64,000 nucleotides of DNA, from positions 29,126-93,125 of IMG/VR virus record IMGVR_UViG_3300013233_000246, one strand, 5' to 3'. The stretch is from a virus. The number at the start of each line of letters is the position of its first letter. The stretch's first letter is position 1. The position numbers and the translations under genes were made by a program. The notes under the pieces are model-generated. The model was not told the DNA's origin and searched no databases. It saw only the letters and a list, made by a program, of their open reading frames with translations. Shown piece after piece: positions 12,553 to 51,405 of the stretch.

Positions 12553-15500
12553 GTGGCTCGTATTAATTTTAGACAAGGCATAGTAAGACACGGAAAAACG
12601 CCCAATCAACCATTCTTTCTACAGCAAAATGGAAATGATGTTGATTTATTAATTTCGCCCGAATTAACCACCATCGCCTTTGAAGATGGCGATAAAGACT
12701 ATTTATTCACCGAATCTACCTCAATTTCCAATGCATGGTTGAATTTATCAATTCCGTCGCAAGATTATTGGCTTTATTGGGAACTTGATCGTATTACTGG
12801 TGTGCGCACTTTTGGCACTACAACTTTTGAACCTATTTATTCCCCAACAGCCCCAGTTACCCCAGCGGTTAATCAAATGTGGTTTGATACTAGTATTGGA
12901 AATATTAGTAGTTCCCGTATGCATTACTGGAATGGTAGTGTGTGGATTCACGTATTACGTGTTATAGCATCTAAAGTTAACAATTTTCAGTTCTTTTCCC
13001 CAATAGATGGTTTTTCAGTAGAAAGCAATTATATAGGCACGCAAATAGGTATTACTGGAAACGTCATTTCCAATGTTGGTTCACTTGCGTATGATAAAAA
13101 CGGAAAGCCAATAGTAAATCAAGATGGAAGATTTTTTACAACAGAAGACGTATTCACTACTGGTGTACCGGATGGGGCATCCATAAAAGTAAATAATACC
13201 TTAACTCGCGCTAGAGCTACCGAACCTCTTGGCGCATATCAAGTTGTAGTTTTTGATGATTTTGAGAAAGTTTCCCTTGCGACCACGTTTTTTACTATTG
13301 ATAAAATATATGGCTTGGTGGATGTTCCTGCAATAATAAATCAGACAGTAAATATTATTACAAAAGGTTCTATATTTAACGAAGCGTGGGATTTTTCATC
13401 CACTGGTGCCACGCCACCAATGGAAGGTAGCATCAATTCACCAATATACATTACACCATTGGGTGAGCTTACAACCGATACAGGTTTTGCTATGCCCGGA
13501 CAAATCCCAGTGGGTGCTATTATTGGCAAACAGACAATCTTATTTAGTCCTGGAATTTATGGTACTATAAATGTACCACCTACAACATCACATAGTGGCT
13601 TGGCAAATCTTAATGCTGATGACCATTTACAATATCATAATGATGCAAGGGGAGACATGCGATATTATGAACAGACGGTAGCAGATAGTGTTTTTGCCCC
13701 AATTATACATACACACACAAAGACTGATATCACCGATTTTGCGCATACTCATCTTGAAGCAGACATCACAAATTTAGACAAATATACACAAGCTGAAGTT
13801 GATACATTTGTTAACAATCTCGATGCTATTAAGGTTAATATTTCTGGTTCTACTATGACAGGACCATTAATATTACCTGCTGATCCAACTACATCATTAC
13901 AAGCCGCAACAAAACAGTACGTTGATGCATTGGCTTCTGGTATAGACGCCAAAGAGTCAGTAGTTGTTAGTACAACAGCAGATATTGGTGGAACATATAC
14001 ATCTATAGGTGGTACATCAGGCTCGGGAAGTTTTATTGGTGTAAACATAACTGCATTAGATGGCACTTATTTGACTGATTATGATTTTACTACAAATAAC
14101 AGGGTGTTGGTTAAAGATCAGACTGATCCAAAACAAAACGGCATATATATAGTTACAAACTTTACAACACCGATATCGTCAGATTTAGAACGTGCTCCAG
14201 ATCATGATGGTAGCCCCATTTTTGAAGTTTCTCCCGGCAATTTTGTTTTTGTAACTGATGGTATATCTCTAGCAGGTTCGGGATGGACAATTTTGGGTGG
14301 AACTGCCACAGGACCTAATGGTACAATAGTTTTAAACACAGATAATATTAATTGGGGTCAGGTAGCAGCATCAACACTGTATGAACCAGGGACAAATATA
14401 TCTATAGATGCTAGTAATAATATAAGTGTTATAGATGCATTATCGGGTGGTACAGTAGATGCACTCAAATGGAATAATAATACATTAACTTTGACATTAC
14501 CAGCTACGGGTCAGCCTATAATTTATAATGCTACAACTCCTACATTTGAAAATGCTAGTTTTTCTTTACCATCAAATGTTGGTTTGGGTGATCAAGTTTT
14601 AGTTACTGACGGATTGGGTTCTACTTCATGGACAAATCCGCAAGTTACAAATCCAATGACTTCTAGCTTGGATGTAGCTGGTTTTTCATTAAATAATTCT
14701 TTAGGAACGTTTGTATTACCTACTGATAACGGAACTAATGGATTTATATTATCAACTGATGGCGCAGGTCTAACCTCTTGGATTTCCCCACCAGCTGGTG
14801 GAAATCAAACGCCATGGACATCAAATATAGATGCCGCCGGTTTTAGCTTAATAACATTGGACACCGTAGAAGCTGATGCAAATGCGATAACATTGAATCC
14901 TGGTGATAGCACTGGCGGTGGAATAAACACTGCCGGTGGTGGCGATATAAATTTGCTTGCAGGAAATAATACATATAGTTCTGGATCTGGTGGTGCTATA
15001 AACATAACGGGCGGTAGTCAGCAATACGATTTAAGTGGTAATGGTGGCGATGTTAACATAACAGCTGGCAACACCTCACACACAGGATTTTCACAACCAG
15101 GATCTGTTTTAATTAAAGGTGGCGATACCGCAGCCGCACAAGGCGGTGCTGTATCCCTTTTTGGCGGTGATAGTACAAGTGCATTTGGTCATACTGGACA
15201 AATATTCATATCAACATTAAATTCAACGGCTGGATATGCAGGAAATATATCCATACTTTCTGGAAATACTGGTTATGATGATGGTACAGGCGGTTCTGTT
15301 AATATAGATAGTGGTAATGGATATTATGGTGGAAAAATAACTTTATCACATGGTGCAGGTTCGGGTGGTACTGGAAGTTATTATCAGGGTGCTGTTATAA
15401 TATCATCAAAAAATTCAACATCTGGATTACTGCGAATAAGTTCTGGTGGTACGTATCATGCGGAAATAAATGTTCCTGTTACCTTGGGTTCATATACAAA

Positions 15501-16365: not shown

Positions 16366-18702
16366 ATGGCTAAAATACGCGGCAATCAAACAGAAATAGA
16401 AGAAATCTTAAACGATCCATTAGCAGCGGCGTCAAATATAAAATCTGGTTCTCTTAGGATAGCAACACAAATAGAAGTAGATGCTGGCACCGATACTTTG
16501 ACAGCAGTAACACCAAATACTTTGTCAAATTTTTCTGGGCTTGGATCAATAACACTTAGTGGTTTGACAGATGTTACGATAACAACACCGGTATTGAATG
16601 AAGTATTGACGTATAATGGTTCTACATGGGTAAATCAGGCACCATCTGGCGCAGCCGCAAACAATTGGTTGATAGCTAATAATGGTGTAGATTTCACAAC
16701 ATCACCAACAGCAGCTGGTAGTAATTCTATTTCTATTGGTGATAATGCCCGGAATGTAAATGGTATAAATTCAATAACGCTGGGTACTACCGCCTATGCA
16801 TATAGAACGGGCTGTGTTGCTATTGGTAATGCATCACGAGCAAACCGCGACGGAGCTATTGCTATTGGTGACGGAGCAAATACGAATGGAACAACAAGTA
16901 ATAATGCGGCAAACATTGCCATAGGAACTGGTGCACAAGCCACCGATGGTGGTCCTAATATAGCATTGGGTAAAAATGCATATGCAGCATCAACAGGAAC
17001 TATAGCTATTGGTAGTTCTGCCAACGTTTCTGCTGTTGCATCCTTCGCGACTGTAATTGGCAATCTTTCGTCGTCCTCTTTTGATAGTTGTACTATCATT
17101 GGCGCAGGCTGCGTGTCTTCAACATTCAATCAAACGATTATCGGCAAGGATATTACTTCTGCGGATGTGCCAGTAGATGTTTCATACAGTGTTAAAATTG
17201 GTACTGGTGTTGCTGGCCAACTTAATATGTTACACTTACATACAAAAGGATTATTAGAATTGGTTGGTGACAACGCACAATTTATATTTCCCAATTATAT
17301 TACAGCTTCTATTCCGGCTACAACGACTGAAGGTGGTGCTATATGGGATGCAACAACCAAAGAACTTAAGATTTATAATGGAACTGCATTTACTGCAATT
17401 GGTGGCGGGGGTGGACTCGCCAACATTGTTGAGGATACTACACCACAATTGGGTGGTAATTTAGATGTAAATGGTTTTGATATTATTACTCCATCGAGTT
17501 CAACCGCAACATCACCATCACATATACAAATACGTGGTGGTGACAAAACATATGTTGGTGGTGGATATGCTGCTGATAGTGTACATTTGTATGGTGGATC
17601 TGCGACCAATAATAACCAGGCGGGTGCTGTTTTTTTGCAAGCTGGTAATGCTTCAGGAACAAGCGATGGTGGTGGTATAACAATAGAATCGGGTTCGGCA
17701 ACAGGAACTGGTGCATGTGGTACAGTGAATATACGTGGGGTTGATACATCAGGTGCAACTGTTACTAGCGCAGGCTCTATGGTTTTGCGTGGTGGTAATG
17801 CTTTTGGTAGCGCTACTTCCACTGCTGGTGGTGATATATCTATGTATGGTGGTAGTGCAGTCGGCGGCACTGCTGGTGTAATTACTATAAGGGGTGGCCT
17901 GCCATCTGGTTCAGGAGTATCTTCTACGGTGCCTGGTGCAGTCAACATTACAGCTGGCGGGCATCTTACTACATATGGTAGTGGTTCAGATTTAAACCTT
18001 AAAGCTGGTGCTGGTTTTTTCGGGGCGGGTTTTATTGGTGGTGATGTTAACATTGATGGTGGCCCCGGTAATTCTAATGCTGACGGTGGTCATGTAAATA
18101 TAACAGGTGGCAATACCACATATTTTAGTACACAGAGAACCCCTGGTAATGTAGTAATCGCGGGTGGAACAGGCACAACACTTGCAGATGGTGGTAATAT
18201 ATCTATTGTTGGTGGTGCTGCGACGGGAGCTGCCTATGGCGGCAATGTCACTATTAAAGGAGGTGCTGATGTAGCAGGTAATGGTATTGTTGCTATTGGT
18301 AATAGTACGGACGGTGCTAAATTAGTATTTAATAACGGAACTAAGATTACAATGTCTGGTACTTTGGATGCCACCAACAATGACATTGATAATATTAAGA
18401 CTATTACATTTAACGGTGAAGTTGCTAATACTACAACAACACAGACAGTGGATTGGACTGTTGGTCAAAAACAAAAGACTACTATTACGGCAGCAACCAC
18501 AATCACATTTACTGCTCCAATAGGTCTTGCTAATTTAACACTCAAGATTATTAATGGAGGACTTGGTATAATTACTTGGCCTGTTAGCATTAAATGGCCT
18601 GGCGGTACGGAACCAACATGGACTAGTTCTGGTACTGATATAGTAACGTTCTATTATGATGGGACGGATTATTTTGGCAGCGCAAGTTTGGCATTTGCAT
18701 AA
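16366..18702 (+). CDS. tail fibre/adhesin with YadA-head-like repeats
   Basis: Repeated AIAIG..A units, then Gly-rich GG-V-I-GG repeats; C-terminal WP..IKWPGG..P..T. Confidence 0.75.
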   Translation: MAKIRGNQTEIEEILNDPLAAASNIKSGSLRIATQIEVDAGTDTLTAVTPNTLSNFSGLGSITLSGLTDVTITTPVLNEVLTYNGSTWVNQAPSGAAANNWLIANNGVDFTTSPTAAGSNSISIGDNARNVNGINSITLGTTAYAYRTGCVAIGNASRANRDGAIAIGDGANTNGTTSNNAANIAIGTGAQATDGGPNIALGKNAYAASTGTIAIGSSANVSAVASFATVIGNLSSSSFDSCTIIGAGCVSSTFNQTIIGKDITSADVPVDVSYSVKIGTGVAGQLNMLHLHTKGLLELVGDNAQFIFPNYITASIPATTTEGGAIWDATTKELKIYNGTAFTAIGGGGGLANIVEDTTPQLGGNLDVNGFDIITPSSSTATSPSHIQIRGGDKTYVGGGYAADSVHLYGGSATNNNQAGAVFLQAGNASGTSDGGGITIESGSATGTGACGTVNIRGVDTSGATVTSAGSMVLRGGNAFGSATSTAGGDISMYGGSAVGGTAGVITIRGGLPSGSGVSSTVPGAVNITAGGHLTTYGSGSDLNLKAGAGFFGAGFIGGDVNIDGGPGNSNADGGHVNITGGNTTYFSTQRTPGNVVIAGGTGTTLADGGNISIVGGAATGAAYGGNVTIKGGADVAGNGIVAIGNSTDGAKLVFNNGTKITMSGTLDATNNDIDNIKTITFNGEVANTTTTQTVDWTVGQKQKTTITAATTITFTAPIGLANLTLKIINGGLGIITWPVSIKWPGGTEPTWTSSGTDIVTFYYDGTDYFGSASLAFA

Positions 18703-37705: not shown

Positions 37706-37780
37706 GCCCTTGTGAGTCAATTGGAAACGGTCGGCCTTCTAAGCCTAACAATGCGGGTTCGAATCCTGCCAAGGGTGCCA
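37706..37780 (+). tRNA. tRNA-Arg(TCT)
   Basis: Loop CTTCTAA, GTTCGAATC, GCCA end. Confidence 0.8.
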
Positions 37781-39589: not shown

Positions 39590-39796
39590 ATGTTATTGAA
39601 TGAAATCGCAAAAGTTATAAATTTTCCAACTAAAAAGAAGAAAAAGAAATCAGAAGACATAAAAATACCAGACACGATTGGTGCACCTGCATCAGATTCT
39701 GTCAGTAATAAGCGACGTGCAAAATTATCCCCATCTGATCAGCTTAGAGATGTTGCACGTCAATTAAGAAATAAAATAAATGCTCCGGACGACTAA
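39590..39796 (+). CDS. small basic protein
   Basis: CATAAATA and GAGGA SD upstream. Confidence 0.5.
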   Translation: MLLNEIAKVINFPTKKKKKKSEDIKIPDTIGAPASDSVSNKRRAKLSPSDQLRDVARQLRNKINAPDD

Positions 39797-39869
39797 TTGG
39801 CGGGTCACCAGACTTTCAATCTGGCGGTGGTAAAACACTAAGTGGGTTCGAATCCCATTCGGAGCACCA
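39782..39869 (+). tRNA. tRNA-Glu(TTC) with long variable arm
   Basis: ccaga-CTTTCAA-tctgg, ACCA. Confidence 0.8.
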
Positions 39870-39969: not shown

Positions 39970-40056
39970 AGCGGGGTATACAAGTGGTCAAAGTGCTGAG
40001 TCTCATAAGCTCAGACCGAAAGGTTTCGCTGGTTCGAATCCAGTCTCCCGCCTCCA
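39970..40056 (+). tRNA. tRNA-Met(CAT) with variable hairpin
   Basis: ctgagt-CTCATAA-gctcag, acc-gaaa-ggt, CCA. Confidence 0.75.
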
Positions 40057-41362: not shown

Positions 41363-41425
41363 TTGGTATGTCAATATTTTTCAAGTGTAAATACATGTAA
41401 CTATTACAGAATTTACGAGATTAAT

Positions 41426-42547
41426 ATGAAATACGAAAAGCATATATCAAAACTTCGTCATCTTATGGTGAAGATTCAGGGAACAGATTTACAACAAGTA
41501 CTGTTACGCGCAGCAGCAAAAAGATCAGAAGAAATTGCTGATAAATTGTACACATCTGATGAAATCTTTGCAGAAGTCAAACCTAAAATTTTAAAAAACA
41601 CTAATAAACTATCATGGAATGAAAGTTTTGAATTGGTTTCAGATGCTGAAAGTTTGGCAATACTTAAACAGGAACTAATAGAAGATAACGTAGAAAGTTT
41701 CCAGTGGGAAGAAACATTATCTTCATTGTTGGAAGGGTTAACACCAACCCAACAAACAATCCTCGCGCCATTGTTAAGAAACCAACATTCATATATTCAA
41801 TCAGAAAGGGCGATGATGCCGAACCGCACCCTTGCCTCACAACATAGTTTAATGCCTGAAAGTGTATATCTTGGCATAACCAGAAGAATATTTGCAGGAA
41901 ATTTTGAAGCATCACAAGGTCTTAAAGCATTTCATGGATTAAATATTGAATTAGAAATGATACAAGCGTTTGCATCTGAGATACAGACTAAAATATCATA
42001 CGAGATAATTAGTGATCTTAAGGCACTTGCCAACAAACAAAATATAGATACAGTAAAATGTAAATCAAATGCCACAATGGAACAAAATGCAAAGAGTATA
42101 GGCATCCATATCAACATGGCAGCAAATAATATAGCATGTACCACCCGTCGTGGGGCTGGTAACTGGATTGTTGTTTCACCAACAATGCTTTCGGTATTGC
42201 AAGAGTCTAATAGTTATAAACAATCAGACGCAGAAGAATTTGGATTGTTTGGTGAGTTGATGGAAGTGGGAACGTTAAATAAGATAATCAAAGTCTTTTC
42301 GGCACCACACTTTGCTGATGATGAAATATTAGTAGGTTATAAAGGTGGTAATGGTGAAATTGATACTGGATACATCTATTGTCCATATGTGGCACTGATG
42401 ACAGATGGCTTGGCTATGCATCCAATGACATATGAACAATCAATGCGTTTTATGACAAGATATGGTAAATTTATTACAGAAAAAGCGGAAGCGTATTACC
42501 GTAATATTAAAGTAGGAAGTGATTTACTTATTACCAAAAAAGAATAA
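41426..42547 (+). CDS. divergent gp23 major-capsid-protein paralogue
   Basis: TRRGAGNWIVVSP, VGYKG..E.DTGYIYCPYV, FMTRYG. Confidence 0.8.
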   Translation: MKYEKHISKLRHLMVKIQGTDLQQVLLRAAAKRSEEIADKLYTSDEIFAEVKPKILKNTNKLSWNESFELVSDAESLAILKQELIEDNVESFQWEETLSSLLEGLTPTQQTILAPLLRNQHSYIQSERAMMPNRTLASQHSLMPESVYLGITRRIFAGNFEASQGLKAFHGLNIELEMIQAFASEIQTKISYEIISDLKALANKQNIDTVKCKSNATMEQNAKSIGIHINMAANNIACTTRRGAGNWIVVSPTMLSVLQESNSYKQSDAEEFGLFGELMEVGTLNKIIKVFSAPHFADDEILVGYKGGNGEIDTGYIYCPYVALMTDGLAMHPMTYEQSMRFMTRYGKFITEKAEAYYRNIKVGSDLLITKKE

Positions 42548-42549
42548 TT

Positions 42550-42625
42550 GGAACTCTGGCAGTGATGGTTCATGCGCCCGGTTGAAGCCCGGTATATCAC
42601 GGTTCGATCCCGTGGGGTTCCACCA
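42550..42625 (+). tRNA. tRNA-Phe(GAA)
   Basis: ccgg-TTGAAGC-ccgg, ACCA. Confidence 0.85.
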
Positions 42626-42657
42626 TTTTTAACCCAATTGATATAAATACCTTCAAA

Positions 42658-43026
42658 ATGGAGGATATTATGTGGTTAGGTGAATTTGTAAAAAATAATC
42701 CGTTTAAAACGGTAACAGGTATATTAGCTATAATTTCAGCATTAAGTACTGGTGTATATCAATTATATTCAACAGGTAATGAAATATTGGACAATTATGC
42801 CACGAAAGAAGATGTATTTAATTCCAAGCGTTCTACGTCATTAGAAATTTTAGATGTATCTATCATGAATTATGAAGATAATTTGATGATTTTAGACTTT
42901 AAGATTGAAGATGGTGTTGCAACCAACACAGATAAAGCAGATAAAAGAAATATTGTGCGTAGGTTACAAGATTTAAAACAAAAGCGCACTTTATTGGAGA
43001 ATAAAAAATATGGTGAACATAATTAA
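42658..43026 (+). CDS. membrane-anchored coiled-coil protein
   Basis: N-terminal hydrophobic helix; late promoter. Confidence 0.55.
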   Translation: MEDIMWLGEFVKNNPFKTVTGILAIISALSTGVYQLYSTGNEILDNYATKEDVFNSKRSTSLEILDVSIMNYEDNLMILDFKIEDGVATNTDKADKRNIVRRLQDLKQKRTLLENKKYGEHN

Positions 43027-43291
43027 AAGATTTGTTATTATTTTGATAGTATGTTTCATATTGGCACCATTATCCGCTATTGGTTCTGATAGTAAGATCG
43101 ATGCCTTTTATACAGAAGCGTATGAAGTGTATGAAGGCGAACTGGAATATAGAATACAAGAAATTGAAGATCGTGAAAAGGAAAGAAAACTTTCTGATTA
43201 TGATAAAAGGTATAAAAGATATCTTCAACAACGTCTTCAAAAGATAAATAGTCGAGATTATCAGCGCGAACAACAAAGATACGACTATTAG
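43010..43291 (+). CDS. signal-peptide-bearing small protein
   Basis: Hydrophobic N-terminus, coupled to previous gene. Confidence 0.5.
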   Translation: MVNIIKRFVIILIVCFILAPLSAIGSDSKIDAFYTEAYEVYEGELEYRIQEIEDREKERKLSDYDKRYKRYLQQRLQKINSRDYQREQQRYDY

Positions 43292-43374
43292 CCGTATATC
43301 AAATTAGGAAGATAACCGCTCACACCACGCATATTGCAAGCGGAAATGTCATGTTGTTTTCCTTTCTAAACAAT

Positions 43375-43454
43375 GCCCTTGTATACCCTCACGCTACGAA
43401 CGTGTTGAAAGGTTAACTGGACACATGCAGGTTCGAACCCTGCCAAGGGTGCCA
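43375..43454 (+). ncRNA. rearranged (D-armless) tRNA-Arg(ACG)-like RNA
   Basis: GCCCTTG/CAAGGGT-GCCA; cacg-CTACGAA-cgtg only 8 nt after the acceptor strand; canonical T-arm. Confidence 0.7.
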
Positions 43455-43511
43455 AATAACTGTCTGGACAAAACTGTAGGTTTGGATTTGTGAAAACTAT
43501 AAATACATTAT

Positions 43512-44218
43512 ATGAATTACAATAACCACTATAACAAATTAATAACTCGTGCGAAATCACAAAATAGGAAAAAGGGTTATGGTGTGTATTATGAACAGCA
43601 CCACATATTACCTGAATGTATGGGTGGTACAAACAACCAAAATAATTTGGTGCTTCTTACATCAAGGGAACACTTTATAGCTCATATACTTCTTATAAAA
43701 ATGCACCCAAACCAACATGGTCTTATATATGCAGTTAATAAAATGTGTAGGTTTAACAAACATCAACGCAGATCAAAAAATAGAATGTATGGTTGGTTGA
43801 AGGAGAAATTTTCAAGAGAAGTTTCCCATAGGCAATCGGGAAATAATAATTCCCAATATGGAACGTGCTGGATATTTAATGAAGAATTAGAAATATCCAA
43901 GAAAGTGGTGAAGCGTGAACTTGAAGAATATCTGATTGATGGATGGCAATCTGGTAGGGTTGTAGACTTTTTGAAATATAAAGAAAATATTTTAAAAAAG
44001 ATAAGATTGAAAAAGATAAAATGATTAAAAAAACTCTTAAACGTGAGTATTATATTGGGCTTTATAATGATTTTATGAAAAGTGATTGTACGTCAATTCG
44101 TGAATTTCAGCGCAATAACGACCTAAAAATACAAAGTTTGATAGATAATTGGAGAAAATATATTAAAGATTTTTCACCAAGAAGAAGTATAGAATATAAA
44201 AAAACATTGGAGCCATAG
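43512..44218 (+). mobile_element. HNH homing endonuclease (C-terminal part possibly frameshifted near 44010)
   Basis: YEQHHILPECMGG.N...NLV.LT.REHFIAH. Confidence 0.8.
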
Positions 44219-44284
44219 CATAACTGGTAGTGCACTTCCCTGTCACGGAAGAGGGTGCGAGTTCGAACCTCGTTGGTTTCGCCA
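44209..44284 (+). tRNA. tRNA-Asp(GTC)
   Basis: cttcc-CTGTCAC-ggaag, GCCA. Confidence 0.9.
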
Positions 44285-44290
44285 AATTAT

Positions 44291-44344
44291 AATGTATCAT
44301 ATAGTATACATTTTACCCCCTTAATGTATACTATATGATACATT
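44291..44344. repeat. 22-bp perfect inverted repeat with 10-nt loop
   Basis: aatgtatcatatagtatacatt-ttaccccctt-aatgtatactatatgatacatt. Confidence 0.85.
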
Positions 44345-44432
44345 GCAAATAGCTTGATCGTGAATGCTAACACATACAACTTAGACCTGTGATTATAGAA
44401 TAGTTAAAAGCATTCATAGAACTATTTATCAT

Positions 44433-44510
44433 ACCCTCGTAACCCAATTGGCAGAGGTGGCTGGTTTAGACCCAGTTTATGTGTCGGTTCGACTCCGACC
44501 GAGGGTACCA
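44433..44510 (+). tRNA. tRNA-Leu(TAG), short variable region
   Basis: gctgg-TTTAGAC-ccagt, ACCA. Confidence 0.85.
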
Positions 44511-44512
44511 AT

Positions 44513-44631
44513 AGTAAAGTGGCGGAACTGGTATACGCTACAGCACGCCAAGTGTCTGTTTGTCAGATGATGTAATCTGGCTGCTAATAAGTGGGAAATC
44601 CATTGCAGGTTCGAGTCCTGTCTTTGCGCCA
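44513..44631 (+). ncRNA. tRNA-like RNA with branched domain replacing the anticodon arm
   Basis: D-arm gcggaactggtatacgc, T-arm gcagg-TTCGAGT-cctgt, GCCA end. Confidence 0.65.
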
Positions 44632-45404: not shown

Positions 45405-45554
45405 TCTCCGTGTAGCTCAGTTGATAGAGCGCTGCCGCTGAAGTTTCGAAACTTGGCAGAGGTCGTGTAGGAAGGTAAAGGCTTATTATTGTGTGGTGAT
45501 ATCCACATAACCGGTGCTAATACTAACCGATGGTTTGAGTCCCGCCACGGAGAC
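45405..45554 (+). ncRNA. tRNA-like RNA with ~60-nt insertion in the T-stem
   Basis: TCTCCGTG/CACGGAGA, canonical D-arm TAGCTCAGTTGATAGAGC; own sigma70 promoter 45365-45393. Confidence 0.65.
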
Positions 45555-45591
45555 TGAGGACGTTTTATTAATACTTCAAAGAGGAATAAAT

Positions 45592-46281
45592 ATGCCAAGA
45601 AAGCAAAAGAAATACCATTACATTTATAAAACTACCAATATATTAAATTATAAGTTTTATATTGGAATGCATTCAACTGATGACTTAGATGATGGGTATG
45701 TTGGTTCTGGTAAAAGACTTTGATATTCAATAAACAAACATGGAAAAGAAAATCACAAGACTGAAATATTAGAATATCTTCCAGATAGGGAATCACTCAG
45801 GAATAGAGAAGAAGAAATAGTCAATGATGAATTGTTAAATGAAGAGTTGTGTATGAATTTAATTGTTGGTGGTAATGAACATTGTGAGCAATTTAATACT
45901 CCAGAAGGCATTGAACGCCGCAGGGATTCAATTAATAAATGGATGAAATCAAAACAACAAGGCTGGCACAAAAAATATCATAACGACGAAGAATTTAGGA
46001 ATAATTGGAAATTGCATTTAAACAAAATGTTAGAGAAACGATTGGCAATGCCACGTTCCACATTTCAGACTTTTCTTGGAAAGCATCATACACAAGAAAC
46101 AAAAGATAAGATGTCTAAAGCAAAAAAGGGCATAGATAAGTATTGCGGTAAAAATCATTCACAATATGGTACTTGTTGGATTTATTCGCTACAACAGGTG
46201 AAAAGCATCAAGATTAAAAATAACCAATTGAATGAATATATTAATAATGGTTGGATTAAAGGCAGAAAGATGAAATTTTAA
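45592..46281 (+). pseudogene. GIY-YIG homing endonuclease with in-frame TGA (45721-45723)
   Basis: GSGKRL*YSINKHGKENH; paralogue of the 40454 gene. Confidence 0.85.
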
Positions 46282-48304: not shown

Positions 48305-48374
48305 ACCCCTATCAGCGGCTGGCTTCGAGGTTTCGACCCTTGATTGAAACGTTCAACTCGTTTTGGGGGTGCCA
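48305..48374 (+). tRNA. compact atypical tRNA-Arg(TCG)
   Basis: tcgagg-TTTCGAC-ccttga, shrunken D-arm, GCCA. Confidence 0.6.
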
Positions 48375-51312: not shown

Positions 51313-51405
51313 GCCCCTATAGTGTAACGGTAGCACCCGAAGTTTATACCTTCGTTTCCAGCAGATTACTGGGTAGTACAGGTTCGAATCCTGTTAGGGG
51401 TACCA
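51313..51405 (+). tRNA. tRNA-Ile(TAT) with long variable arm
   Basis: cgaag-TTTATAC-cttcg, ACCA. Confidence 0.8.

What the first reader, a model, noticed from the sequence alone, without database searches (positions are those of the whole stretch)
43375..43454. tRNA-Arg(ACG) with rearranged arms
Seen: intact acceptor and T-arm nearly identical to tRNA-Arg(TCT) at 37706, but the anticodon hairpin starts 8 nt after the acceptor strand, and a D-loop-like TAACTGGA sits 3' of it where the variable arm should be. The 5' acc could pair with the downstream ggt. Inference: a non-canonical fold that rebuilds the elbow from the other side, acting as a nuclease-resistant tRNA or as a decoy.
Basis: partly seen in the sequence, partly recalled or inferred. 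Interest (0 to 1): 0.74.

Follow-up and report, generated by a model that had tools for sequence, protein, structure and literature searches.

The report
Phage arginine tRNA, relocated D-loop
This 80-base phage gene is very probably a working arginine tRNA that keeps every standard tRNA part but has one D-stem strand and the D-loop placed after the anticodon arm instead of before it, a non-cloverleaf layout shared by hundreds of phage tRNA genes, missed by tRNA finders and not found in any paper I could search.

Summary
Window 43375-43454 (+) has a 7-bp acceptor stem, a T-arm, G73 and CCA. It has a tRNA-Arg(ACG) anticodon arm only 7-8 nt after the acceptor strand, and a D-loop-like CUGGA after that arm. 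ARAGORN and Rfam do not call it.

It is not a deletion product. I collected 256 distinct homologues from unrelated phages: Streptomyces BE phages, Microbacterium phages and many IMG/VR contigs.
- The helix ACC/GGU that encloses the anticodon arm covaries: 15 sequence types, 256/256 fully paired.
- The relocated GG covaries with T-loop 55-56: 255 of 256 fit.
- The base after UA covaries with the last base before the T-stem, as the 15-48 Levitt pair does.
- Base 20 is A in all 111 Arg members (the ArgRS mark) and U in 142/144 Ile members.
- Anticodons are Arg or Ile, plus one Val.
- Rearranged and ordinary tRNAs with the same anticodon exclude each other in phage tRNA arrays (ACG: 0 loci with both, p=2e-7).

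Best reading: a functional tRNA-Arg with a permuted D-arm. The decoy idea is unlikely, and nuclease evasion is untested.

Earlier notes of this scan reached the same reading on at least 32 other genomes. No published description was found.

The parts
43375..43381 (+). Acceptor stem, 5' strand (positions 1-7), GCCCTTG
   Evidence: Pairs with 43444-43450. All 7 acceptor pairs show compensatory changes across 105 aligned members.
43382..43384 (+). Linker U8 A9, then U taken as position 22
   Evidence: T8 and A9 were fixed by my search patterns. The third base is T in most members, A or C in a few. The numbering is inferred.
43385..43387 (+). D-stem strand ACC (equivalent to positions 23-25), directly upstream of the anticodon arm as in a normal tRNA
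   Evidence: Pairs with 43411-43413. 256 of 256 members are fully paired, with 15 sequence types. The helix was left unconstrained in the searches.
43388..43388 (+). C taken as position 26. It may pair with the invariant G at 43407.
   Evidence: C in 82 of 82 members found by a pattern that left this position free. The pairing with G is inferred.
43389..43405 (+). Anticodon arm: U27, CACG, loop CTACGAA (anticodon ACG at 43396-43398), CGTG, U43
   Evidence: The 4 Watson-Crick pairs covary and are 99.8% paired. The loop has U33 and A37. The U27-U43 pair was fixed by my patterns.
43406..43410 (+). Linker U-GAAA between the anticodon arm and the second D-stem strand (3-nt A bulge in the model)
   Evidence: The first base varies (T/A/C/G). 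GAAA was fixed in all my patterns, but it is also kept in the divergent covariance-model hit L309:8849-8924. Its role is inferred.
43411..43414 (+). D-stem strand GGT (equivalent to positions 10-12) plus U13
   Evidence: Covaries with 43385-43387. U13 is T in 82 of 82 members where the position was free.
43415..43426 (+). Relocated D-loop and junction: A14 A15 C U G18 (43419) G19 (43420) A20 (43421) C A C A U48 (43426)
   Evidence: GG covaries with T-loop 55-56: GG/TC 240, GA/TT 11, AG/GC 4, one exception. Position 15 covaries with the last base before the T-stem: A-T 206, G-C 29, T-G 4. Base 20 is A in 111 of 111 Arg members.
43427..43443 (+). T-arm GCAGG-TTCGAAC-CCTGC (T54 43432, psi55 43433, C56 43434)
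   Evidence: Four of the 5 stem pairs show compensatory changes. The loop is the standard TTCRA.
43444..43454 (+). Acceptor 3' strand CAAGGGT, discriminator G73 (43451), encoded CCA (43452-43454)
   Evidence: Identical to the 3' end of the ordinary tRNA-Arg(TCT) at 37706. CCA is encoded in 96 of 256 family members.

Best explanation
Window 43375-43454 is the gene of a functional phage tRNA-Arg with anticodon ACG. It belongs to a large family, seen almost only in phage sequence, that has a permuted D-arm.

The order of parts is:
- acceptor 5' strand;
- U8 A9;
- the D-stem strand that normally lies at positions 22-25;
- C26;
- the anticodon arm;
- a U-GAAA linker;
- the D-stem strand that normally lies at positions 10-13;
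- the D-loop (A14, R15, G18, G19, N20);
- C-A-Y48;
- the T-arm and the acceptor 3' strand.

Shown by covariation: the short D helix, the G18-psi55 and G19-C56 elbow contacts, and the 15-48 pair.

Inferred from these: the D helix stacks on the anticodon stem as one continuous bulged helix of about 10 layers, the same count as D-stem + 26 + anticodon stem in a normal tRNA. The RNA therefore still forms the L-shape.

Inferred function: host ArgRS charges it, reading A20, C35, G36 and G73. Host TadA converts A34 to inosine. The tRNA then decodes CGU, CGC and CGA for the phage, filling the slot that an ordinary tRNA-Arg(ACG) fills in other phage tRNA arrays. Why the rearranged core is kept is not known.
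For: Structure:
- The D helix is fully paired in 256 of 256 distinct members with 15 sequence types, and it was unconstrained in the searches.
- On 105 aligned members, 98.8% of cells are paired. Of 21 pairs, 19 show changes on both sides. None of 500 shuffles reaches any measure, and slid controls drop to 32-49% paired.
- RNAalifold predicts the same fold on its own.
- Elbow contacts: GG/TC 240, GA/TT 11, AG/GC 4, one exception.
- Levitt pair 15-48: A-T 206, G-C 29, T-G 4.

Identity marks:
- Base 20 is A in 111 of 111 Arg members and T in 142 of 144 Ile/CAU members.
- The discriminator is A in 144 of 144 Ile/CAU members.
- That A20, C35 and G36 are bacterial ArgRS determinants, and A73 an IleRS determinant, is established knowledge recalled from memory.

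Context:
- The element sits on the same strand inside a 25-tRNA array.
- Loci with members carry a median of 9 tRNAs.
- CCA is encoded here, as it is in the neighbouring tRNA at 37706.

Functional replacement (loci with 3 or more tRNAs):
- ACG: rearranged and ordinary together 0, rearranged only 84, ordinary only 24, neither 79; p = 1.8e-7.
- GAT: 7 / 50 / 63 / 67; p = 1.3e-6.

Need in this phage:
- The 93-kb record has no ordinary tRNA-Arg(ACG).
- CGT+CGC+CGA make up 52% of Arg codons in its long ORFs.

Conservation: in the distant relative L036 the tRNA is 90% identical while the flanks are 70-82% identical.
Against: - There are no expression, charging or decoding data. No sequencing run could be listed, so this is untested.
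- The backbone around A20 and the D-stem differs from a normal tRNA. ArgRS, EF-Tu and the ribosome may handle it less well.
- In this copy the anticodon stem has a U-U pair at 27-43, and pair 1-72 is G-U.
- Several invariant positions (U8, A9, U27, U43, GAAA, A14) were fixed by my own search patterns. Their conservation is therefore only partly tested.
- The window's record is about 27% complete. An ordinary tRNA-Arg(ACG) could lie elsewhere in the genome.
- The restriction of the layout to Arg and Ile (plus one Val) is unexplained.
Confidence: 0.78

Rival explanations
1. Decoy or sponge. The RNA mimics tRNA-Arg(ACG) to soak up a host anticodon nuclease or another tRNA-binding factor, and is not itself used in translation.
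For: The anticodon loop CTACGAA is almost invariant in 88 ACG members. Phage tRNA arrays are known to counter tRNA-targeting defences (general knowledge). The unusual core might block normal use.
Against: A decoy for an anticodon nuclease would not need A20, an A73 specific to Ile members, a 7-bp acceptor stem with encoded CCA, or preserved elbow and Levitt contacts. A decoy would also be expected to sit beside ordinary tRNAs of the same anticodon. Instead these genes exclude them.
Confidence: 0.07
2. Working tRNA whose rearranged core is an adaptation. It escapes a host or phage tRNA-directed nuclease or modification enzyme that reads the normal D-arm/variable-loop geometry of tRNA-Arg and tRNA-Ile. 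This is a sub-case of the best explanation and adds a selective reason.
For: The layout is restricted to a few isoacceptor families: Arg 111, Ile/CAU 144, Val 1. It is confined to phage arrays, with only 5 hits in 185,579 species genomes, all of them MAG contigs carrying tRNA arrays. It has spread across unrelated phages.
Against: No candidate nuclease was identified. No gene is consistently linked to these tRNAs. The shared neighbour I found at 45563-45898 is only a homing endonuclease. The pattern could equally reflect a single origin followed by horizontal spread and anticodon switching.
Confidence: 0.25
3. Degenerate pseudogene: an ordinary tRNA-Arg that lost its D-arm through deletion or rearrangement and is no longer functional.
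For: Standard finders do not call it. The single-sequence fold energy is not distinctive.
Against: There are 256 distinct homologues in unrelated phages with compensatory changes in every helix and in three tertiary contacts. The covariance model separates members cleanly, at 63-95 bits against 23 or less for ordinary tRNAs.
Confidence: 0.01
4. Precursor that is cut and re-ligated (for example by a phage RNA ligase) into a normal cloverleaf order, as happens with the permuted or split tRNA genes of some algae and archaea.
For: Some carrier phages encode RNA ligases close to their tRNA arrays.
Against: Restoring the normal order would need two cuts and two ligations inside the folded core. The covarying helix and tertiary pairs are all satisfied by the unprocessed order. 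Many carrier contigs show no ligase nearby, although this was not surveyed systematically.
Confidence: 0.03

Closest known systems
Canonical class I tRNA-Arg(ACG) of bacteria and phages (Rfam RF00005)
   Same: 7-bp acceptor stem, discriminator and CCA. T-arm with TTCRA. 5-layer anticodon stem with a 7-nt loop CUACGAA (U33, A37). G18G19 contacts to psi55 and C56. R15-Y48 pair. A20, C35 and G36 marks. Position inside a tRNA array.
   Different: There is no D hairpin between positions 9 and 26. One D-stem strand and the D-loop lie 3' of the anticodon arm. The D helix has 3 pairs and is closed by the anticodon arm rather than by the D-loop. There is no 4-5 nt variable loop. RF00005 gives no match at E<=1 and ARAGORN gives no call.
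D-armless and armless mitochondrial tRNAs of animals (nematodes, mites; e.g. PMC6158502, PMC4394434, listed)
   Same: Natural tRNAs that depart from the cloverleaf and are missed by standard finders. Only a short linker lies between the acceptor strand and the anticodon arm.
   Different: Those tRNAs have lost the D-loop and its contact with the T-loop, and they are shortened. This family keeps the D-loop, the elbow contacts and full length (77-80 nt). The parts are reordered, not lost.
Class II tRNAs (Leu, Ser, Tyr, Sec) with a long variable arm
   Same: A long stretch (21 nt here) between the anticodon arm and the T-arm.
   Different: In class II tRNAs that stretch folds into its own hairpin and a normal D-arm is present. 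Here it pairs with the 5' linker and carries the D-loop.
Circularly permuted and split tRNA genes (Cyanidioschyzon merolae, Nanoarchaeum; recalled from memory)
   Same: The order of tRNA segments in the gene differs from the textbook order.
   Different: In those cases processing restores a normal cloverleaf. Here the rearranged order itself satisfies all covarying pairs, so the mature RNA is expected to be non-cloverleaf.
allo-tRNAs and other 8/4 or 9/3 tRNAs (PMC5389517, listed)
   Same: Non-canonical tRNA shapes discovered by mining genomes and metagenomes.
   Different: Those change helix lengths within the cloverleaf topology. This family changes the connectivity of the strands.

Membership tests
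tRNA, canonical cloverleaf (Rfam RF00005) | 7-bp acceptor stem with discriminator and 3' CCA end | tested here: met
   43375-43381 pairs with 43444-43450, followed by G and CCA. All 7 pairs covary in the family.
tRNA, canonical cloverleaf (Rfam RF00005) | T-arm: 5-bp stem and 7-nt loop T54 psi55 C56 R57 A58 | tested here: met
   GCAGG-TTCGAAC-CCTGC. Four of 5 pairs show compensatory changes.
tRNA, canonical cloverleaf (Rfam RF00005) | Anticodon arm: 5-layer stem and 7-nt loop with U33 and purine 37 | tested here: met
   U-U plus 4 Watson-Crick pairs; loop CTACGAA. The stem is 99.8% paired and covaries.
tRNA, canonical cloverleaf (Rfam RF00005) | D-arm hairpin between positions 9 and 26 | tested here: not met
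   Only 7 nt (TATACCC) separate the acceptor strand from the anticodon arm.
tRNA, canonical cloverleaf (Rfam RF00005) | Tertiary core: G18-psi55, G19-C56 and R15-Y48 | tested here: met
   Covariation tables: 255 of 256 members consistent for 18-19/55-56; 15/48 gives A-T 206, G-C 29, T-G 4.
tRNA, canonical cloverleaf (Rfam RF00005) | Scores above the family's gathering threshold, or is called by tRNA finders | tested here: not met
   No RF00005 match at E<=1. ARAGORN does not call it and overlaps only 3 of 278 family members.
Bacterial tRNA-Arg identity (ArgRS substrate) | A20 in the D-loop, C35, G36 or U36, and A or G at 73 (determinants recalled from the literature) | tested here: met
   A at 43421 follows G18G19. 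The anticodon is ACG and the discriminator is G. A20 is present in 111 of 111 Arg members, against T in 142 of 144 Ile members. The position numbering rests on my structural model.
Bacterial tRNA-Arg identity (ArgRS substrate) | Is actually aminoacylated with arginine | not testable with these tools
   Needs a charging assay.
Phage tRNAs with permuted D-arm (the family defined here; model R1) | Layout acceptor-UA-N-[3 nt]-C-anticodon arm-N-GAAA-[3 nt complementary]-U-A-R-D-loop-CAY-T-arm, with a high score to the covariance model | tested here: met
   92.4 bits, E 7e-25. Members score 63-95 bits and ordinary tRNAs 23 or less.
Mitochondrial-type D-armless tRNA | Loss of the D-loop and of the D-loop/T-loop interaction, with a shortened molecule | tested here: not met
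   The D-loop motif is present and covaries with the T-loop. The length is 77 nt plus CCA.
Class II tRNA (long variable arm) | The extra region forms its own stem-loop, in addition to a normal D-arm | tested here: not met
   The extra region pairs with the 5' linker and no D hairpin is present.

The most novel reading that the evidence does not exclude
The permuted core is a counter-defence adaptation. Phages would keep translating Arg and Ile codons with tRNAs whose D-arm and variable-loop geometry cannot be recognised by a host (or phage-encoded) tRNA-directed nuclease or modifying enzyme that disables the ordinary cellular tRNA-Arg and tRNA-Ile. That would make this the first natural, topologically rewired tRNA fold selected for immune evasion.
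Probability: 0.25. Interest if true: 0.93.

Novelty: new variant of a known kind. Interest (0 to 1): 0.82.

Why it matters
The cloverleaf is treated as universal outside animal mitochondria. [quoted passage not shown]

If these RNAs are charged and used in translation, several things follow:
- The L-shape could be built from a different strand connectivity.
- ArgRS and IleRS, together with EF-Tu, RNase P and the ribosome, would accept that connectivity.
- Phage tRNA counts are systematically too low. Some records also mislabel these genes: EGole lists one as tRNA-Leu(UUA) and Mildred21 lists one as tRNA-Phe(gaa).
- The family would give a natural scaffold for orthogonal tRNA engineering.
- It would give a concrete case for asking why only Arg and Ile tRNAs were rewired.

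Cultured carriers exist (Streptomyces BE phages and Microbacterium phage A3Wally), so the question can be tested directly.

Tried and rejected
- Rfam at E<=1 over 35000-60000 gave nothing at the element.
- The single-sequence MFE fold is not distinctive.
- The alternative helix CCAGUU/AACUGG, seen in many ACG members, is not kept in the window or in other members, so I dropped it.
- Sequencing runs: none was listed for 42500-44600 and no RNA holder was listed. Expression is therefore untested.
- Ten literature searches found no description of this layout. They covered D-arm, non-canonical, permuted, cloverleaf variants, the motif strings and Streptomyces BE phages.
- One viral scan was wasted on a mis-spaced pattern.
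- The genome-contig scan gave 62 hits. Of these, 57 were chance matches without a T-arm, about what is expected for 17 fixed bases. The 5 real ones lie in tRNA arrays on MAG contigs.
- I looked for a gene linked to these tRNAs. The DNA segment shared by many loci (window 45563-45898) is a GIY-YIG homing endonuclease gene and not a specific partner.
- Pfam on the flanking ORFs found only a Gp23-like capsid domain upstream.
- The promoter and terminator scans were uninformative.
- No RNA 3D prediction tool was available.

Full report
**1. Observation**

The sequence at 43375-43454 (+) reads as follows:
- acceptor 5' strand GCCCTTG;
- TATACCCT;
- hairpin CACG-CTACGAA-CGTG;
- TTGAAAGGTTAA;
- CTGGACACAT;
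- T-arm GCAGG-TTCGAAC-CCTGC;
- acceptor 3' strand CAAGGGT, then G and CCA.

Both acceptor strands, the discriminator and CCA are identical to those of the ordinary tRNA-Arg(TCT) at 37706. The T-arm matches that tRNA at 15 of 17 positions.

ARAGORN finds 25 tRNAs in the window but not this element. Rfam finds no family here even at E<=1. The single-sequence fold energy is unremarkable (z = -0.35).

**2. Homologues**

BLAST against cultured phages found the same 64-nt core, unannotated, inside the tRNA arrays of two groups:
- Streptomyces BE phages such as Mildred21 and Persimmon;
- Microbacterium phages A3Wally and Zooman.

Pattern scans of IMG/VR then gave many more members.

After requiring only a T-arm and an acceptor stem, I hold 256 distinct sequences.

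A covariance model built from 105 of them separates the family cleanly:
- members score 63-95 bits;
- ordinary tRNAs score 23 bits or less;
- the window's copy scores 92.4 bits, and it is the only member in the window and in the whole 93-kb record.

The commonest sequence variant was also scanned across 185,579 prokaryote species genomes. That scan gave 5 real hits, all inside tRNA arrays on MAG contigs. The layout therefore looks phage-borne.

**3. Structure from covariation**

- **The ACC/GGT helix is real.**
  - The searches left these six bases free. Even so, every member pairs all three positions: 82 of 82, 69 of 69, and 256 of 256 overall.
  - Fifteen sequence combinations occur, among them ACC:GGT, CTC:GAG, CCC:GGG, GCC:GGC, AAC:GTT and CGG:CCG.
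- **Secondary structure on 105 ungapped members.**
  - 98.8% of cells are paired, and 19 of 21 pairs show changes on both sides.
  - None of 500 shuffles reaches any measure, and slid controls fall to 32-49% paired.
  - RNAalifold predicts the same secondary structure independently.
- **Three tertiary contacts of the normal tRNA core also covary.**
  - The GG after the anticodon arm against T-loop positions 55-56: GG/TC 240, GA/TT 11, AG/GC 4, one exception.
  - The base after U-A against the last base before the T-stem behaves like the R15-Y48 Levitt pair: A-T 206, G-C 29, T-G 4, with few others.
- **Resulting map.** The parts lie in this order:
  - acceptor 5' strand, U8, A9;
  - positions 22-25, C26;
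  - anticodon arm 27-43;
  - N-GAAA linker;
  - positions 10-13, A14, R15, then G18, G19, N20;
  - C-A-Y48, T-arm.

One D-stem strand and the D-loop have therefore changed sides. The D helix is closed by the anticodon arm instead of by the D-loop.

The following points are inferred, not shown:
- C26 pairs with the invariant G of GAAA.
- AAA is a bulge.
- The D helix (3 pairs plus U13-U22), the C26-G pair and the anticodon stem (U27-U43 plus 4 pairs) stack into about 10 layers, the same count as in a normal tRNA.
- A21 lies in the conserved C-A before position 48.

**4. Function**

- **Anticodon repertoire** of the 256 members:

| Amino acid | Anticodons (count) |
|---|---|
| Arg | ACG 88, TCT 15, TCG 4, CCT 3, GCG 1 |
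| Ile or Ile2/Met | TAT 80, GAT 55, CAT 9 |
| Val | TAC 1 |

- **Synthetase identity marks** follow the anticodon.
  - The base after G18G19 is A in 111 of 111 Arg members. A20 is the main D-loop determinant of bacterial ArgRS (recalled from the literature).
  - The same base is U in 142 of 144 Ile/CAU members.
  - The discriminator is A in 144 of 144 Ile/CAU members and varies among Arg members.
- **Array context.** The genes lie in phage tRNA arrays, with a median of 9 tRNAs per locus.
- **Exclusion of ordinary tRNAs.** The genes exclude ordinary tRNAs with the same anticodon. Counts are loci with 3 or more tRNAs:

| Anticodon | Both | Rearranged only | Ordinary only | Neither | p |
|---|---|---|---|---|---|
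| ACG | 0 | 84 | 24 | 79 | 1.8e-7 |
| GAT | 7 | 50 | 63 | 67 | 1.3e-6 |
| TAT | 1 | 34 | 33 | 119 | 0.007 |

- **This phage.**
  - The window's 93-kb record has no ordinary tRNA-Arg(ACG).
  - It uses CGT+CGC+CGA for 52% of the Arg codons in its long ORFs.
  - In the distant relative L036 the same gene sits in the same place, after a Gp23-like ORF and before tRNA-Asp. There the tRNA is 90% identical while the flanks are 70-82% identical.

Taken together, this points to a tRNA that is charged and used in translation. It argues against both a decoy and a pseudogene. No expression or charging data could be obtained.

**5. What is not explained**

- I cannot say why the layout exists or why it is limited to Arg and Ile. 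It may be a neutral solution that arose once and spread among phage arrays with anticodon switching. It may equally be an escape from a factor that reads the normal D-arm and variable loop. I give the second about one chance in four.
- I found no consistently linked gene. The DNA segment shared by many loci is only a homing endonuclease gene.

**6. Comparison with known systems**

It works like an ordinary class I tRNA-Arg, but it fails two defining cloverleaf features: the D hairpin between positions 9 and 26, and the short variable loop. It is invisible to RF00005 and ARAGORN.

It also differs from the other known departures from the textbook tRNA:
- Mitochondrial D-armless tRNAs have lost the D-loop, whereas this family has relocated it.
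- In class II tRNAs the extra arm is a separate hairpin.
- Permuted or split tRNA genes are processed back into a cloverleaf.

Ten full-text searches found no description of this layout. One 2024 paper states that all known bacterial tRNAs are cloverleaf (PMC11551756).

Earlier AI notes of this same scan describe the same layout on at least 32 other genomes and reach the same reading. These are not independent evidence, and I re-derived every claim here.

**7. Verdict**

The decoy idea is unlikely, and nuclease resistance remains untested. This is a new structural variant of tRNA. Interest is high.

Noticed in passing
window 48305-48374 (+): ARAGORN calls a 70-nt tRNA-Arg(tcg) with the anticodon at position 29 and almost no D-arm. 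Neither Rfam (E<=1) nor model R1 matches it. It has a good acceptor stem, G and CCA, and a TTCAACT T-loop. It could be a second kind of odd tRNA or a wreck.
   Followed up: partly
window 51313-51405, 39782-39869 and 39971-40052 (+): Three otherwise ordinary tRNAs are unusually long because of an extra stretch between the anticodon arm and the T-arm: Ile(tat) 93 nt, Glu(ttc) 88 nt and Met(cat) 82 nt. In the Ile(tat) gene the extra stretch looks like a hairpin (CCAG...CTGG). A long variable arm is not expected for these isoacceptors.
   Followed up: no
window 45594-46281 (+): A GIY-YIG (Seg-like) homing endonuclease gene, conserved at DNA level in many phage tRNA arrays. The window's copy has an in-frame TGA where relatives have TGG (Trp), which splits it into ORFs 45514-45723 and 45832-46281.
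   Followed up: partly
window 43512-44024 (+): A 170-aa ORF with DNA similarity to mobE-type homing endonuclease genes of T4-like phages. It lies between the rearranged tRNA-Arg and tRNA-Asp. In the relative L036 those two tRNAs are about 90 nt apart, so this ORF looks like an insertion.
   Followed up: partly
window 41363-42547 (+): An ORF with a Gp23-type major capsid domain (Pfam PF07068, E 1e-40; only the C-terminal half of the ORF matches) lies directly upstream of the tRNA array. This suggests a T4-like phage.
   Followed up: no
L265 (Streptomyces phage Mildred21) 3704-3780, 21368-21443, 24858-24934; L085 (EGole) 1195-1271: Mildred21 carries three family members. Ile(GAT) and Arg(ACG) are unannotated, and Arg(TCG) is annotated as tRNA-Phe(gaa). 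EGole annotates its Ile(GAT) member as tRNA-Leu (codon UUA).
   Followed up: yes
L265 16380-16454 and 14968-15044: Mildred21's 'tRNA-OTHER' at 16380 has a TCT anticodon loop and a D-loop-like AUAACGGAAA after it. It scores 37.7 bits with R1, which suggests a divergent cousin of the family. An unannotated 77-nt element at 14968 has an acceptor stem and a T-arm but no recognisable anticodon arm.
   Followed up: partly
L308:4-80 and L309:8849-8924: L308 is the only family member with a Val anticodon (TAC); it has U20 and A73. L309 is a divergent Arg(TCT) member with C27-G43 instead of U-U, G at position 26 and a shortened D helix.
   Followed up: no
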